This document shows positions 20,407-45,436 of a stretch of DNA of 59,243 nt, in pieces (position 1 is the first letter of the stretch; every line of letters begins with the position of its first letter). Under the pieces are notes generated by a model that was not told the DNA's origin, did no database searches, and worked only from the letters and a program-made list of their open reading frames with translations. Position numbers and translations under genes: made by a program. This stretch comes from a virus (Duplodnaviria > Caudoviricetes). The DNA is taken from the IMG/VR virus record IMGVR_UViG_3300022690_001351, positions 1 through 59,243 of that record. The stretch is one strand, 5' to 3'.

Positions 20407-20478
20407 GCCCCCTTCGTCTATCGGTTAGGACATCAGGTTTTCAATCTGAGTAGGCAAGTTCGATTCTTGCAGGGGGTA
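20407..20478 (+). tRNA. tRNA-Glu (TTC), CCA not encoded
   Basis: Acceptor GCCCCCT/AGGGGGT, D arm GTCT/GGAC, anticodon arm TCAGG-TTTTCAA-TCTGA, T arm GCAAG-TTCGATT-CTTGC. Confidence 0.9.
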
Positions 20479-20481
20479 CAT

Positions 20482-21084
20482 TTAAGTATTAAAAAACAAG
20501 ATACCAACATTAGCAGGCTTTAATATCCCGAATATGCACTGTAATATACTCTGTTGACCAATTGCAGCAGGTGTAAAAGGTACATCATAAGGTGGTACTT
20601 CTGGTATAATGCCATCCCCTCTAACTACCATAATAAACCTTGATGCAGGTGATTTTGTAGGAATAAAAGGTACACAATAAGGAGGAAATGCCTCATCTTG
20701 AAGTGGAGTCACGGTTACAACAAATCCGAGTAACAAGGCTATCTCTTCAAATTGTTCTTGTGTTGATACTCCGCTAGCACGTAATTTAATTATAATATTG
20801 GCACGTCGCTCTTCTATGGTTGGTGCGATTGTAAAACACGCATCAGGAATACCAACAGCAGACTCCCATTCTTCTATAAATAACGTTGTATTAAATATAT
20901 TATGCTCTTCAGCAACAGTTGCAATTTTATTCTCATCTCTTACAAATTCTTTAGAAAAAGCGGTGAATAAATTGTGTATATTACTATCAGGAATGTTTTT
21001 TTGATCAAATAATTTACCTAGTGGTAAAAAACTTACAGAAATCTGTGTATGATCTACTAATGTATTTCTATTAAATTTTACCAT
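20482..21084 (-). CDS. baseplate protein, Mu gp48/YmfQ (DUF2313)-like
   Basis: LPLGKLF, EEWESAVGIPDAC, IEERRANIIIKL, QCIFGILKPAN motifs. Confidence 0.85.
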   Translation of the reverse strand: MVKFNRNTLVDHTQISVSFLPLGKLFDQKNIPDSNIHNLFTAFSKEFVRDENKIATVAEEHNIFNTTLFIEEWESAVGIPDACFTIAPTIEERRANIIIKLRASGVSTQEQFEEIALLLGFVVTVTPLQDEAFPPYCVPFIPTKSPASRFIMVVRGDGIIPEVPPYDVPFTPAAIGQQSILQCIFGILKPANVGILFFNT

Positions 21085-21101
21085 AAATATAATTTATTGT
21101 A

Positions 21102-21131
21102 TTGACACGCTCGGCGATGACATGGTACTAT
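21102..21131 (+). promoter_or_regulatory. sigma70 promoter carrying an inverted copy of the conserved spacer motif
   Basis: TTGACA-N18-TACTAT; reverse complement of 21105-21125 is CCATGTCATCGCCGAGCGTGT. Confidence 0.7.
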
Positions 21132-21170
21132 ATATTGTACTACAATCTCAATAAAAATCAAGATGTACAA

Positions 21171-21680
21171 ATGGTTACTGCAAGATATACAAAAAATAAG
21201 ACAGCAAAAGGGTATACGAGAATATCGTTATGGATTCCAACATCAGAAAAAGATGAAATTAATTCATATATTGAATTTAAAAGGGATCGTTGGGAATGCG
21301 AGACTGGCACAGGATTTAATAGTAACAAAAAAAAAGAATTAATGAATGCTATTGAGGAACTGTATCATGACGGTTCTGACTTAGAATCTATTGCTAGACA
21401 ACTTAATGATCGTGGTTTTACAGGAATGTATGGGGGCATCTTGTATGCTAGACAAATAAAAAGGCTGTGGAGAAGTGAAACAGGAATAGAAATTGATTCT
21501 GATAGAAAAAATGAGTTGATAAATATAGTAAAAAAATTACACAAAGACGGTTGTGACTTTGAATCTATCGCTTCTCAACTTCGCAAGCTTGGTTTTAAAG
21601 GTCATAATTTACATAGAAAACAAATCCAAAGATATTTAGATATGAAACAATCCCTTGACAAGTCACCACCCATCATGTAG
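21171..21680 (+). CDS. putative DNA-binding regulator with tandem recombinase-type HTH repeats
   Basis: KGYTRISLWIP (RHH-like) plus two repeats ESIARQLNDRGF / ESIASQLRKLGF; no catalytic recombinase domain. Confidence 0.6.
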   Translation: MVTARYTKNKTAKGYTRISLWIPTSEKDEINSYIEFKRDRWECETGTGFNSNKKKELMNAIEELYHDGSDLESIARQLNDRGFTGMYGGILYARQIKRLWRSETGIEIDSDRKNELINIVKKLHKDGCDFESIASQLRKLGFKGHNLHRKQIQRYLDMKQSLDKSPPIM

Positions 21681-21683
21681 TGT
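21655..21683 (+). promoter_or_regulatory. conserved-spacer promoter, copy 4
   Basis: TTGACA-AGTCACCACCCATCATG-TAGTGT; predicted +1 at or next to G21690. Confidence 0.85.
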
Positions 21684-21689
21684 ATACAA

Positions 21690-21788
21690 GTCGGAGTAGC
21701 TCAGTTGGTTAGAGCGGCGGTTCATAATATTTAGACCCATGGATCGATTATGAGGTGTAGGTCGGGGGTTCGAGTCCTCCTTCCGACA
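21690..21788 (+). ncRNA. tRNA-like RNA with elongated anticodon arm
   Basis: Canonical acceptor GTCGGAG/TTCCGAC, D arm GCTC/GAGC, T arm GGGGG-TTCGAGT-CCTCC; about 25 extra nt in anticodon arm. Confidence 0.8.
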
Positions 21789-21808
21789 TTAACATTTAGG
21801 AGGTTACA

Positions 21809-22996
21809 ATACAGACATTTCCATCAATTTCACAATTTCATTCCGTTAGAAAGTATTTAAAAAAGAATGCTTTAGATTTTGACATTCAATATCGAGCAAA
21901 GATTAAACTACATGGTTGTAATGTTGGTGTGCAATATGCTAATGATGGTCGTATTTATGCTCAATCTCGCAATGGCATCATTACACCTAAAGATGATCTT
22001 TTTGGTTTTGCAGCTTGGATTGGAGAAAACATTGATTGGTTTAGATTGCAATTTAAGTATATAGATAAATCTGTTCGTCCTATAACTATCTTTGGTGAGT
22101 GGTGCGGTAAAGGGATTCAAAAAAATACAGCCATAAATAAAATTGATCGAAAGATTTTTGCCATTTTTGCTATTCAATTTGAAGACTCTATTATGGTAGA
22201 ACCCAAAGCTATTGACGCACATTTAAACAAGGATTTAGCAGTATGGGAGTCTTCTCTACAGCCAGATAATCTATATATTTTACCATGGTTTGAAGAACGC
22301 TTACCATTGTTTACAAGTCTCTTAGGCGTATCAAATCTTAATATTATGTATAATAATGATTGTTCTATAAAAGAGGCTGTAGATTATCTTAATGATTGTG
22401 TAACTAAGATTGAAAAATGCGATCCTTGGGTTAAAAAAGTTTTTGATATTGAGGGAATTGGAGAGGGATTAGTTTGGTATCCATGTCTTGAAAAATCTCT
22501 TTGGGATGTCGACTTCGAAAAAACTAGTCAAGATATGTCCAAAAGTTTTGTTCAATATGATTCTTGGTCTAAAGATGTATTCGGCTGCATATCAAAAATT
22601 GGGAAAGGGACGGTTTTAGAATCCTATGTAAAAGACGGCTTTATAGAGTCAGGTGAATTTTCTAAATATGTCTTTAAAGTCAAAGGTAAAGCACATAAAG
22701 TAAATACCTCAAAAACTGCCGTGCAACTTGATCCTGATGTTTTAAAAAATATTAATGAATTTGTAGACAAGTTTGCAACTGAAAATCGTTTCATGCAAGG
22801 TGTTTGTGAAATCAATAATGGCAATCCTATATTTGAACAAAAATTAATTGGCAAGTTTATTGGTTGGGTGTCTAAAGATATTAAGAAGGAATCCGCCGCA
22901 GAGCTAGAAGTTAGCGGGTTAATCTGGCAACAAATAAATAATAAAATTACACAGCGTAGCCGTGAGTGGTATATCAAAAAATTAGAGGAGGTTTAA
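21809..22996 (+). CDS. RNA ligase (Rnl2-like nucleotidyltransferase), probable ATA start
   Basis: Motifs KLHGCN, SRN, FGEWCG, FAIFAI, EGLVW, KVK; AGGAGG 5 nt before ATA; in-frame TAG at 21797. Confidence 0.85.
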   Translation: MQTFPSISQFHSVRKYLKKNALDFDIQYRAKIKLHGCNVGVQYANDGRIYAQSRNGIITPKDDLFGFAAWIGENIDWFRLQFKYIDKSVRPITIFGEWCGKGIQKNTAINKIDRKIFAIFAIQFEDSIMVEPKAIDAHLNKDLAVWESSLQPDNLYILPWFEERLPLFTSLLGVSNLNIMYNNDCSIKEAVDYLNDCVTKIEKCDPWVKKVFDIEGIGEGLVWYPCLEKSLWDVDFEKTSQDMSKSFVQYDSWSKDVFGCISKIGKGTVLESYVKDGFIESGEFSKYVFKVKGKAHKVNTSKTAVQLDPDVLKNINEFVDKFATENRFMQGVCEINNGNPIFEQKLIGKFIGWVSKDIKKESAAELEVSGLIWQQINNKITQRSREWYIKKLEEV

Positions 22997-23227
22997 ATGA
23001 GTGGTTTTTTTAAGGCATGGAATGTGAGCTTCTTTAAAAGCTTCAGCATGTCCCTGAGCAAAGGCTTCGGCTAAAATTACTATATTCCGATTATCAGTCG
23101 GTGTGGCTGTGGCTGCACAGGGTTCAGCAAGCATACAAGCCGAATAGGCTTCATTAAAAGTTGCACTTTGACAAACAGCATCATAAGCTGCATTATACCG
23201 ATCGCCAGCTTTTTTTGTCATACTCAT
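22982..23227 (-). CDS. Ala-rich hypothetical protein
   Basis: ATGA overlap with 23224 ORF. Confidence 0.55.
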   Translation of the reverse strand: MSMTKKAGDRYNAAYDAVCQSATFNEAYSACMLAEPCAATATPTDNRNIVILAEAFAQGHAEAFKEAHIPCLKKTTHLNLL

Positions 23228-24129: not shown

Positions 24130-24184
24130 AACTCTATATAATCAGATAAAAAAGATAAAACAATAAATATTTTTTAATTACTGC

Positions 24185-24291
24185 TTGACAAGTCACCACA
24201 TAACATGTAGTATATAGTTATTATCAACAGACGCAATCGCAGTTACAGGTTTAATCCGCTCAACTGATGCTTTGCTAAGTGATATAAATTA
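24185..24291 (+). repeat. promoter copy 5 plus leader, about 107-bp direct repeat of 45330..45436
   Basis: TTGACA-AGTCACCACATAACATG-TAGTAT then leader; identical to the 45330 copy except one base. Confidence 0.9.
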
Positions 24292-45311: not shown

Positions 45312-45329
45312 AATAATTATAATTTGTAG

Positions 45330-45436
45330 TTGACAAGTCACCACATAACATGTAGTATCTAGTTATTATCAACAGACGCAATCGCAGTTACAGGTTTAAT
45401 CCGCTCAACTGATGCTTTGCTAAGTGATATAAATTA
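45330..45436 (+). repeat. promoter copy 10 plus leader, direct repeat of 24185..24291
   Basis: TTGACA-AGTCACCACATAACATG-TAGTAT and identical leader. Confidence 0.9.

What the first reader, a model, noticed from the sequence alone, without database searches (positions are those of the whole stretch)
21655..22996. tRNA mimic with an extended anticodon arm directly upstream of an RNA ligase
Seen: a 99-nt RNA starting at the predicted +1 has textbook acceptor, D and T arms. The anticodon arm is a 12-position helix (GCGGTTCATAAT/ATTATGAGGTGT, one G-G mismatch) capped by 18 further nt that can also pair. The TTCATAA that would form a CAU anticodon loop is sequestered in the helix. Twenty nt downstream begins an Rnl2-type ligase. 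Established: phage RNA ligases repair tRNAs cut by anticodon nucleases, and protein-spliced tRNA introns are typical of archaea and eukaryotes. Inference: either an intron-like pre-tRNA matured by cleavage and ligation, or a non-decoding decoy for nucleases, synthetases or tRNA sensors. Simple intron removal does not give a well-paired 5-bp stem, so the decoy model fits better.
Basis: partly seen in the sequence, partly recalled or inferred. Interest (0 to 1): 0.85.

Follow-up and report, generated by a model that had tools for sequence, protein, structure and literature searches.

The report
Rod-armed tRNA relic leading ligase gene
A phage gene that was once a normal tRNA now has a long hairpin where its anticodon arm should be, so it cannot read codons, and it is made as the first part of the transcript of an RNA-repair ligase; it is a one-off with no known relatives, so whether it still does anything is open.

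Summary
Window 21690-21788 (+) scores 43.8 bits on Rfam tRNA (cut-off 29). Its acceptor, D and T arms are canonical, and a 42-nt hairpin replaces the 17-nt anticodon arm. An Rnl2-like ligase gene starts 20 nt downstream, at an ATA codon.

New findings:
- Nucleotides 3-39, through TTCATAAT, match phage tRNA-Met(CAT) genes at 84-92% identity, so the element derives from a tRNA(CAU).
- It lies directly behind one of at least 9 copies of a 27-nt phage promoter motif (0 expected by chance). It is therefore probably the 5' leader of the ligase transcript.

Against a special role:
- The hairpin is no more stable than 24 of 200 shuffles.
- No single excision restores a usable anticodon arm.
- No homologue turned up in any collection, so covariation cannot be tested.
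- Ligase genes are rarely preceded by tRNAs (2 of 80 loci).

My best reading (0.4) is a disabled tRNA(CAU) gene kept between promoter and ligase. A functional non-decoding mimic (0.33) and an intron-like precursor (0.15) remain open. Interest is moderate.

The parts
21654..21683 (+). Copy of the phage's repeated promoter motif CTTGACAAGTCRCCRCCCATNNTGTAG. The -35 TTGACA is at 21655-21660, followed by a 17-nt spacer and the -10 TAGTGT at 21678-21683. The inferred start lies near 21690.
   Evidence: 9 copies with at most 3 mismatches, all on the + strand, 0 expected in 100 shuffles. The copies were aligned with their downstream sequence. Another copy sits 13 nt before tRNA-Glu. The generic scan did not list this site. 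The function as a promoter is inferred.
21690..21788 (+). tRNA-like gene of 99 nt, with canonical acceptor, D and T arms, variable loop AGGTC and discriminator A. CCA is not encoded.
   Evidence: Rfam RF00005 at 43.8 bits, model positions 1-71. The pairs were read.
21717..21758 (+). 42-nt hairpin in place of the 17-nt anticodon arm. From base to tip: 3 pairs (G-U, C-G, G-U), a G-G mismatch, 8 pairs, a 2-nt bulge (21745-21746), 5 pairs and the loop GACCCA (21734-21739).
   Evidence: The minimum-energy and centroid folds are identical, -9.5 kcal/mol, z -1.34. The same arm appears in the fold of the whole RNA.
21721..21727 (+). TTCATAA, the relic of a CAU anticodon loop, now fully paired with ATTATGA at 21747-21753.
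   Evidence: Nucleotides 3-39 of the element align to phage tRNA-Met(CAT) genes at 84-92% identity with one 1-nt gap in the 5' strand of the anticodon stem.
21798..21803 (+). Shine-Dalgarno AGGAGG, 5 nt before the ATA start.
   Evidence: Read. The spacing was checked against the frame.
21809..22996 (+). Rnl2-like RNA ligase gene of 395 codons with an ATA start. All catalytic motif residues are kept. It carries a stretch of about 45 residues, between motifs IV and V, that all 17 aligned homologues lack.
   Evidence: PF09414 at 9.7e-12. phrog_548 'RNA ligase' at 1.8e-44. The family profile matches T4 Rnl2 (2hvq) at E 1.1e-12 over chain residues 2-301. Alignment A1 gives the invariant columns and the N-terminus. 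The first ATG/GTG/TTG in frame is GTG 21929, downstream of the motif I lysine.

Best explanation
The element is a gene derived from a phage tRNA with a CAU anticodon, of the kind that reads AUG or, after lysidine modification, AUA. About 26 extra nucleotides now sit on the 3' side of the old anticodon loop, and one nucleotide is missing from the 5' strand of the stem. As a result the old loop is paired into a rod of about 17 base pairs. The RNA keeps a full tRNA body but has no anticodon loop, so it cannot decode.

It is transcribed from its own copy of the phage's repeated promoter, and the tRNA's first base is at about +1. There is no terminator before the ligase gene, so it forms the first 99 nt of the ligase transcript.

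Most likely it is a disabled tRNA gene that persists because it lies between the promoter and the ligase gene. Host tRNA 3'-end processing would cut it off and leave the ligase message with a 20-nt leader that carries the ribosome-binding site.

What is shown: the tRNA body, the origin from a tRNA(CAU), the hairpin, the promoter motif copies, and the ligase family and its start codon. What is inferred: transcription, processing and loss of function.
For: - Rfam tRNA scores 43.8 bits, with the insertion confined to the anticodon arm.
- Nucleotides 3-39 match annotated phage tRNA-Met(CAT) genes at 84-92% identity, through TCATAAT. The five-sequence alignment shows positions 8-27 invariant.
- No contiguous excision leaving 16-18 nt gives more than 3 Watson-Crick pairs in a 5-pair stem. 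The excisions that keep U33 give at most 2.
- The hairpin is not more stable than 24 of 200 shuffles.
- No relative of the element was found in any collection.
- The promoter motif occurs 9 times against 0 expected. One copy ends 9 nt before the element and another 13 nt before tRNA-Glu.
- No terminator-like site lies between the element and the ligase.
- A tRNA-then-ligase gene order occurs elsewhere with normal tRNAs (L043 and L045), so the layout can be inherited.
- ATA makes up 250 of 611 Ile codons in 16 long ORFs, so an AUA-reading tRNA would once have been useful.
Against: - The tRNA body is pristine. All 16 pairs outside the anticodon arm and all checked tertiary partners are intact, while the anticodon arm differs by several events. 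This is not the pattern of long neutral decay. It fits either a very recent hit or selection on the body.
- The 8-pair segment that buries the old loop is perfect.
- Phage genomes are compact and tend to lose dead sequence.
- The promoter copy is intact.
- With only one sequence, loss of function cannot be shown.
Confidence: 0.4

Rival explanations
1. It is a functional tRNA mimic that does not decode. The tRNA body recruits tRNA-binding proteins and the rod-like arm removes the anticodon loop. Two versions are possible. (a) It is a cis operator: the ligase, whose cyanobacterial relatives carry a fused tRNA-binding domain, binds the mimic 10 nt from its own ribosome-binding site and limits its own translation. 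(b) It is a free decoy that occupies host tRNA-directed nucleases or sensors and offers them no loop to cut.
For: - The tRNA core is intact while the anticodon arm is remodelled.
- It has its own promoter copy and is fused to the ligase message.
- Many homologues of the ligase carry PF01588, a tRNA-binding domain, so the family probably acts on tRNA.
- The ligase has a weak ATA start behind a strong AGGAGG, which would suit controlled expression.
- Other phage tRNA-like genes without a canonical anticodon arm exist and are conserved. One IMG/VR family counts 61 contigs and has a covarying stem. Two genes, L108 and L149, have a long continuous hairpin in that position.
- Autoregulation by substrate mimicry (the ThrRS operator) and phage tRNAs that counter tRNA nucleases are known. 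The first is recalled. The second comes from the search listing.
Against: - No homologue exists, so there is no covariation and no evidence of conservation of the arm.
- The arm's stability is within the range of shuffles.
- No tRNA-like leader was seen before other ligase genes: 0 of the 20 closest by Rfam within 2.6 kb upstream, and 2 of 80 by T-arm motif, both ordinary tRNA arrays.
- 29 of 31 phage records with insertion-bearing tRNA-like genes have no PF09414 ligase.
Confidence: 0.33
2. It is a precursor with an intron-like insertion. The insert is cut out by a host or phage nuclease and the halves are sealed by the neighbouring ligase. The product would be an AUA or AUG reader. Both strands of the helix hold a possible loop: TTCATAA (CAU) and ATTATGA (UAU).
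For: - The 3' end of the insert pairs with the old anticodon loop, as intron ends do in archaeal pre-tRNA-Met genes found.
- Phage tRNA genes with unexplained introns have been reported in Lak megaphages (passages read).
- An RNA ligase gene is adjacent, and ATA codons are common.
Against: - Every excision leaves the stem GCGGU/GGUGU or worse, with at most 3 Watson-Crick pairs.
- The helix is continuous, with no pair of 3-nt bulges. There is no splicing endonuclease, RNase III or RtcB gene in the window.
- The sigma-70-type promoter motif points to a bacterial host.
- Of 41 insertion-bearing tRNA(CAU) genes in genomes whose titles were listed, 39 are archaeal.
- At 26 nt the insert is far too short for a group I intron, and Rfam finds none.
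Confidence: 0.15
3. It is an assembly or consensus artefact. The insertion and the ATA start would then be errors of a metagenome assembly, not features of a living phage.
For: There is only one holder run, which may be the source of the window. Only one contig spans the region.
Against: - The spanning contig has a word depth of 27 and matches the window without a difference over 21000-23100.
- The insertion forms an ordered helix inside an otherwise perfect tRNA.
- The ligase frame is open for 395 codons with all motifs kept.
Confidence: 0.05

Closest known systems
Phage-encoded tRNA-Met/Ile2 (CAU) genes, for example in Rhizobium phage B1VFA, Pseudomonas phage PA5oct and Acidovorax phage ACP17
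   Same: The acceptor/D-arm region and the anticodon-loop sequence TCATAAT match at 84-92% identity over nucleotides 3-39. The D-loop is of the bacterial type, and the variable loop AGGTC and the T-loop are shared.
   Different: Those genes are 74 nt long with a 5-pair anticodon stem and a free 7-nt loop. Here one nucleotide of the 5' strand is missing, 31 nt stand where positions 39-43 should be, and the loop is buried in a helix.
tRNA genes with 'enigmatic' introns in Lak megaphages (Devoto et al., bioRxiv 10.1101/356790; journal version PMC6784885)
   Same: Both are phage tRNA genes that are longer than expected because of an insert in the anticodon region, with no known splicing route (passages read).
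   Different: The Lak inserts are reported as conserved across cohorts and lie in Phe, Gly, Thr and Tyr tRNAs of genomes above 540 kb. This element is a single copy in a myovirus contig of 59 kb. Their sequences are in a supplementary table that I could not open, so no direct comparison was made.
Archaeal pre-tRNA-Met/Ile2 with bulge-helix-bulge introns
   Same: The insert follows the CAU loop, and the 3' end of the insert pairs with the anticodon loop (examples L319, L341 and L355).
   Different: The archaeal genes keep a strong 5-pair anticodon stem and two bulges, and excision restores a normal arm. Here neither holds. The D-loop and the promoter are bacterial in type.
T4 RNA ligase 2 and phage tRNA repair
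   Same: The ligase family profile matches T4 Rnl2 over chain residues 2-301 of 335 at E 1.1e-12. The motif I, III, IV and V residues are invariant.
   Different: The protein scores 36.5 bits against a cut-off of 197 on the NCBIfam Rnl2 equivalog, so it is a distant relative. No end-healing kinase/phosphatase gene was noticed near it. That T4 Rnl2 seals nicks in duplex RNA is recalled, not tested.
Bacterial Y RNA YrlA, a tRNA-like module with Ro60/Rsr next to RtcB
   Same: Both are non-decoding RNAs with tRNA-like D, T and acceptor parts and a long helix where the anticodon arm would be, encoded next to an RNA ligase (recalled).
   Different: No Rfam family other than tRNA matches. There is no TROVE or RtcB gene in the window. 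In YrlA the RNA ends lie in the long helix (recalled), whereas here they lie in the acceptor stem.

Membership tests
tRNA (Rfam RF00005) | Score above the gathering threshold with a full-length match | tested here: met
   43.8 bits against 29, model positions 1-71.
tRNA (Rfam RF00005) | Acceptor (7 pairs), D (4 pairs) and T (5 pairs) stems, and conserved tertiary nucleotides | tested here: met
   Read. All pairs are standard or G-U. U8, A14, G15/C48, G18G19, U54U55C56, A58 and G26/A44 are present.
tRNA (Rfam RF00005) | 5-pair anticodon stem with a free 7-nt loop (U33, anticodon, purine 37) | tested here: not met
   38 nt stand in place of 13. The loop sequence is paired. No excision restores the arm.
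Protein-spliced (bulge-helix-bulge) intron-containing pre-tRNA | Two 3-nt bulges separated by a 4-pair helix at the exon-intron borders | tested here: not met
   The fold is a continuous helix with one 1x1 mismatch and one 2-nt bulge near the tip.
Protein-spliced (bulge-helix-bulge) intron-containing pre-tRNA | Excision yields a canonical anticodon arm | tested here: not met
   All splits that retain 16, 17 or 18 nt were listed. The best stem has 5 pairs, of which 3 are Watson-Crick, with an 8-nt loop and no U33.
Protein-spliced (bulge-helix-bulge) intron-containing pre-tRNA | A splicing endonuclease is available | tested here: inconclusive
   PF01974 is absent from the window. The record is about 70% complete and the host is unknown.
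Group I intron in a tRNA gene | Self-splicing intron of about 200 nt or more that matches the intron model | tested here: not met
   The insert is about 26 nt. The only Rfam match at E up to 1 in 21600-21900 is tRNA.
Rnl2-type RNA ligase (PF09414 / TIGR02307) | Nucleotidyltransferase motifs, including the motif I lysine | tested here: met
   K34/K36, G99-E100, E222-G223 and K293/K295 are invariant in 18 sequences. PF09414 scores 45.8 bits against 27.
Rnl2-type RNA ligase (PF09414 / TIGR02307) | Equivalog-level similarity to T4 Rnl2 | tested here: not met
   TIGR02307 scores 36.5 bits against a cut-off of 197.15. The profile still matches 2hvq at E 1.1e-12, so it is a distant family member.
Y RNA / YrlA with Ro60 | A match to a Y RNA model and a TROVE-domain partner | tested here: not met
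   No such Rfam match. PF05731 is absent from the window.

The most novel reading that the evidence does not exclude
The RNA is a purpose-built tRNA mimic that serves as the leader of the ligase message. The tRNA-repair ligase would recognise the tRNA body and sit on a helix that offers no anticodon loop. This would throttle its own translation from the nearby AGGAGG-ATA start. After release by 3'-end processing, the same RNA could soak up host tRNA-directed defence nucleases. This would be a phage case of substrate mimicry that couples an RNA-repair enzyme to a decoy of its substrate.
Probability: 0.2. Interest if true: 0.7.

Novelty: new variant of a known kind. Interest (0 to 1): 0.4.

Why it matters
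Phage tRNA genes are now seen as counter-measures to host nucleases that cut tRNA, and phage RNA ligases as repair tools. An RNA that keeps the whole tRNA body, hides the anticodon loop, and is made on the same transcript as an Rnl2-like ligase would, if functional, link the two ideas. It could be a decoy or an operator that imitates the enzyme's substrate. If it is only a broken tRNA gene, it is a clean example of how one insertion disables a tRNA and of a ligase gene that depends on a tRNA promoter. The pattern scans also showed that tRNA-shaped genes with non-canonical anticodon regions are common in viral contigs. That class deserves a systematic survey.

Tried and rejected
Searches for relatives of the element, all without a relative:
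- An exact 24-nt stretch of the arm in viral contigs gave 0 matches.
- A helix-plus-T-loop pattern in metagenome contigs gave 108 matches in 103 stretches. Read one by one, none is a homologue. Two (L216, L250) are an unrelated tRNA-Ser-like gene with an insert.
- A 35-nt stretch in genome contigs gave 0 matches.
- A D-arm/TCATAA/long-gap/T-loop pattern gave 9 matches in viral contigs. Eight are normal tRNAs plus a chance downstream GGTTCRA. The ninth was flagged only because its T-loop differs from the test motif.
- The same pattern in genome contigs gave 121 matches, 63 normal and 58 flagged as insertion-bearing. Of the 41 flagged loci whose titles were listed, 39 are archaeal and 2 bacterial.
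- The 5' half and an acceptor-stem pattern in viral contigs gave 0 and 0 matches.
- blastn of 1401 nt against GenBank phages gave no match.
- Terminase relatives in IMG/VR are only 30% identical (4 loci). A single-protein ligase scan found none.

Expression: no RNA holder is listed and only one DNA run, possibly the source, holds the stretch. Laying contigs of 3 runs gave one spanning contig and short pieces of other organisms, with no variants in the element.

Other checks:
- The insert is not repeated in the window. The repeat finder showed nothing relevant there.
- ARAGORN's tRNA-Asn(att) model, with a 4-nt intron and a long variable arm, was rejected as forced.
- An apical anticodon-like loop was rejected: the loop has 6 nt and no U33.
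- RNase III processing followed by sealing was considered. The stagger needed for either candidate loop does not fit a 2-nt 3' overhang. This is inference only.
- A phage attachment site was rejected. Both tRNA halves are present and phage genes flank the element on both sides.
- An archaeal host was rejected on the bacterial-type D-loop and the sigma-70-type promoter copies.
- Literature: searches found no description of a phage tRNA-like RNA with an extended anticodon arm next to a ligase. Only the Lak megaphage report of tRNA introns came close.
The contigs of the two closest ligase homologues (P0003 at 47% and P0004 at 45% identity by BLASTP) could therefore not be read.
- Supplementary Table S6 of the Lak paper, which holds the intron sequences, could not be opened and may bear on the comparison.
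Full report
**What the window is.** The window is a whole IMG/VR virus record of 59,243 bp, judged about 70% complete. It encodes a major head protein, portal, large terminase, tail sheath, baseplate proteins, tape measure and tail fibre, so it is a tailed phage with a contractile tail. G+C is 30-38%. Only one public run holds the sequence, a marine sediment metagenome that may be its source.

**The observation.** Rfam's tRNA model matches 21690-21788 (+) over its full length at 43.8 bits (cut-off 29). It puts 38 nt where the model has 13, inside the anticodon arm. The only other tRNA in the window is tRNA-Glu(UUC) at 20407-20479.

Read from the sequence, the acceptor stem has 7 pairs, the D stem 4 and the T stem 5. 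Two of these 16 pairs are G-U. The standard tertiary partners are all present: U8/A14, G15/C48, G18G19 with U55C56, U54/A58 and G26/A44.

Between G26 (21716) and A44 (21759) lie 42 nt, which fold into one hairpin. From base to tip it has three outer pairs (G-U, C-G, G-U), a G-G mismatch, eight pairs that include TTCATAA paired with ATTATGA, a 2-nt bulge, five pairs and a 6-nt loop. On energy alone the hairpin is not exceptional: -9.5 kcal/mol against -6.6 +/- 2.2 for shuffles, and 24 of 200 shuffles fold at least as well. Default ARAGORN does not call the gene. With introns allowed it forces a tRNA-Asn(att) model that I reject.

**The ligase.**
- Start codon. The downstream frame is open from 21800 to 22996. 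Its first ATG, GTG or TTG is GTG 21929, which lies after the motif I lysine (KIKLHG), so that cannot be the start. Seventeen homologues begin M-x-F-x-K-[FW]-P-S-I, and the window reads I-Q-T-F-P-S-I. This places the start at ATA 21809, 5 nt after AGGAGG (21798-21803) and 20 nt after the tRNA-like end.
- Family. The protein matches PF09414 and phrog_548 'RNA ligase'. The family profile matches T4 RNA ligase 2 (2hvq) at E 1.1e-12 over chain residues 2-301. It falls far below the NCBIfam Rnl2 equivalog cut-off (36.5 against 197 bits). I therefore call it Rnl2-like and a distant member.
- Motifs and relatives. All motif residues are invariant across the 18 aligned sequences. The window's protein alone has about 45 extra residues between motifs IV and V. 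Many homologues, mostly cyanobacterial where named, are fused to PF01588, a tRNA-binding domain. This suggests the family works on tRNA.

**Where the element came from.** A blastn of the 99 nt against GenBank phages gives its best places over nucleotides 3-39 or 4-39. These are nearly all annotated tRNA-Met (CAT), at 84-92% identity, with a 1-nt length difference. Aligned with four such genes, positions 8-27 and the heptamer TCATAAT are invariant. The window has one nucleotide fewer in the 5' strand of the anticodon stem. After the old loop it has 31 nt where the others have the five nucleotides 39-43.

The element therefore descends from a tRNA(CAU) gene. Its D-loop (AGTTGGTTA) is of the bacterial type. 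The insertion-bearing tRNA(CAU) genes found in genomes are nearly all archaeal (39 of the 41 whose titles were listed) and mostly have longer D-loops. ATA is 250 of 611 Ile codons in 16 long ORFs. An AUA-reading tRNA of the lysidine type would therefore have been useful to this phage. That last step is inference.

**Can it be a precursor?** I listed every split of the 42 nt that keeps 16, 17 or 18 nt. The stem is always GCGGU/GGUGU or worse. The best cases have five pairs, of which two or three are Watson-Crick, and they lack U33. Splits that give U33 and a purine at position 37 (loops UUUAUGA or AUUAUGA, anticodon UAU) leave four pairs with one Watson-Crick pair.

The helix has no pair of 3-nt bulges. 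The insert is too short for a group I intron, and Rfam sees none. The window has no match to the splicing endonuclease, RNase III, RtcB or TROVE families, though the record is incomplete. Phage tRNA genes with unexplained introns have been reported in Lak megaphages (passages read). The idea is therefore not absurd, but nothing here supports it.

**Expression.** However, the 27 nt at 21654-21680 are one copy of a motif, CTTGACAAGTCRCCRCCCATNNTGTAG. It occurs 9 times with at most 3 mismatches, always on the + strand, against 0 expected. A tenth copy begins GTTGACA.

Most copies lie closely upstream of + strand ORFs, and one ends 13 nt before tRNA-Glu. With -35 TTGACA, a 17-nt spacer and -10 TAGnnT, the start for this copy falls at about 21690, the first base of the tRNA-like gene. 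No terminator-like site lies between the element and the ligase. I infer that the element and the ligase form one transcription unit in which the tRNA-like RNA is the first 99 nt. No RNA data exist to test this.

**Relatives and linkage.** No relative of the element was found. The seven pattern scans, the blastn and the terminase and ligase scans behind this statement are listed under Tried and rejected. Covariation therefore cannot be counted.

Linkage to ligases is weak:
- Eighty viral loci encode a relative of the ligase. ARAGORN with introns allowed found tRNA genes in 13 of them.
- Rfam found none within 2.6 kb upstream in the 20 closest loci.
- A T-arm motif within 400 nt upstream occurs in 2 of 80 (L043 and L045). 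In both the ligase sits in an ordinary tRNA array.
- At genome level, 21 of 39 ligase-bearing records have tRNA genes, including 7 of 7 that are at least 90% complete. This fits a tRNA-related role for the enzyme.
I chose 36 representatives. Five of them were not held. Of the 31 records searched, 2 encode a PF09414 ligase, none of the 7 near-complete ones does, and in those 2 the ligase lies 8-13 kb from the long tRNA genes.

**Weighing the readings.**
- For a disabled tRNA gene: the clear tRNA(CAU) ancestry, the impossibility of decoding, the ordinary stability of the hairpin, the lack of any relative, and the fact that a tRNA-then-ligase order exists elsewhere with normal tRNAs.
- Against it: the tRNA body is flawless while the anticodon arm differs by several events. 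This fits either a very recent hit or selection on the body.
- For a functional mimic, acting as a decoy or as an operator for the ligase: that contrast, the element's own promoter, the fusion to the ligase message, the weak ATA start behind a strong ribosome-binding site, and the existence of conserved phage tRNA-like genes without a normal anticodon arm. It has no direct support.
- My odds are 0.40 for a disabled tRNA gene, 0.33 for a functional mimic, 0.15 for a precursor and 0.05 for an artefact. The remainder is for something I have not thought of.

**Novelty and score.** Phage tRNA genes with odd inserts are in print. Phage tRNAs as counter-defence appear in the listings. This element is a new variant: a tRNA(CAU) derivative whose old loop is buried in a rod of about 17 pairs, made as the leader of an Rnl2-like ligase message. 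With a single copy and no conservation data, I score interest at 0.4.

Noticed in passing
window 4002, 11129, 20367, 21654, 24184, 26272, 30715, 34421, 38830 (27 nt each) and 45329: A 27-nt motif CTTGACAAGTCRCCRCCCATNNTGTAG occurs 9 times with at most 3 mismatches, all on the + strand, against 0 expected. A tenth copy starts GTTGACA. It looks like the phage's own promoter class: -35 TTGACA, a G+C-rich 17-nt spacer and -10 TAGnnT. The generic promoter scan misses several copies.
   Followed up: partly
window 24184-24291 and 45329-45436: Two promoter copies are each followed by an identical leader of about 80 nt, ahead of two different ORFs (alignment A4). It may be a shared regulatory leader or a small RNA.
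   Followed up: no
window 21102-21680 (+): The ORF just upstream has a 56-nt direct repeat (77% identical) that encodes twice a motif like DGxDxESIAxQLxxxGFxG. It has weak sub-threshold matches to the serine-recombinase 'Recombinase' domain and to an integrase PHROG. Its last nine codons are the promoter motif.
   Followed up: partly
window 21809-22996: The database gene call for this ligase (P0002, 355 aa, from GTG 21929) lacks the motif I lysine. The real start is most likely ATA 21809. The protein also has about 45 residues between motifs IV and V that are absent from all 17 aligned homologues.
   Followed up: partly
L085 429-536 and 17 other distinct sequences (61 IMG/VR contigs, mostly from one metagenome): This is a conserved phage tRNA-like gene family with acceptor ACCCAAG (ATCCAAG in one). 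It has normal D and T arms but 57 nt between them and no canonical anticodon loop. The stem AGACC/GGTCT covaries in L123 (AGGTC/GACCT). A second pairing, UCCAG/CUGG, would make a pseudoknot.
   Followed up: partly
L103, L118, L148 (viral contigs of 37-201 kb): These tRNA genes have a normal UAU anticodon arm followed, in the variable region, by a second hairpin whose loop reads CUGAUAA or CUGAUAU, like a GAU anticodon arm.
   Followed up: no
L108 439-546 (-) and L149 4064-4170 (-): Two phage tRNA-like genes share the acceptor stem GGGGAAG/CTTCTCC. Their long continuous hairpins of about 50 nt, in place of the anticodon arm, differ completely in sequence. Architecturally they are the nearest analogues of the window's element. 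L149's record is complete and has no PF09414 ligase.
   Followed up: partly
L196, L127, L107, L125 (viral contigs): These tRNA genes carry 14-39-nt inserts at the canonical 37/38 position (Lys-UUU, Asn-GUU, Ile-UAU), and the insert pairs with the anticodon. Three of the four records (L107, L127, L196) were 'not held' for search and L125's record is a bounded one, so they may be eukaryotic giant-virus bins, not phages. L109 and L119, from bins named as giant-virus bins and also 'not held', have the same layout for Ile-UAU.
   Followed up: no
L216 5287-5400 and L250: A metagenome tRNA-Ser(CGA)-like gene with a long variable arm and an insert of about 30 nt in the anticodon loop, on contigs of 103 kb and 15 kb.
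   Followed up: no
L043 and L045: In two viral contigs the ligase homologue sits inside a tRNA gene array, with a tRNA ending 27-112 nt before the ligase match and on the same strand.
   Followed up: partly
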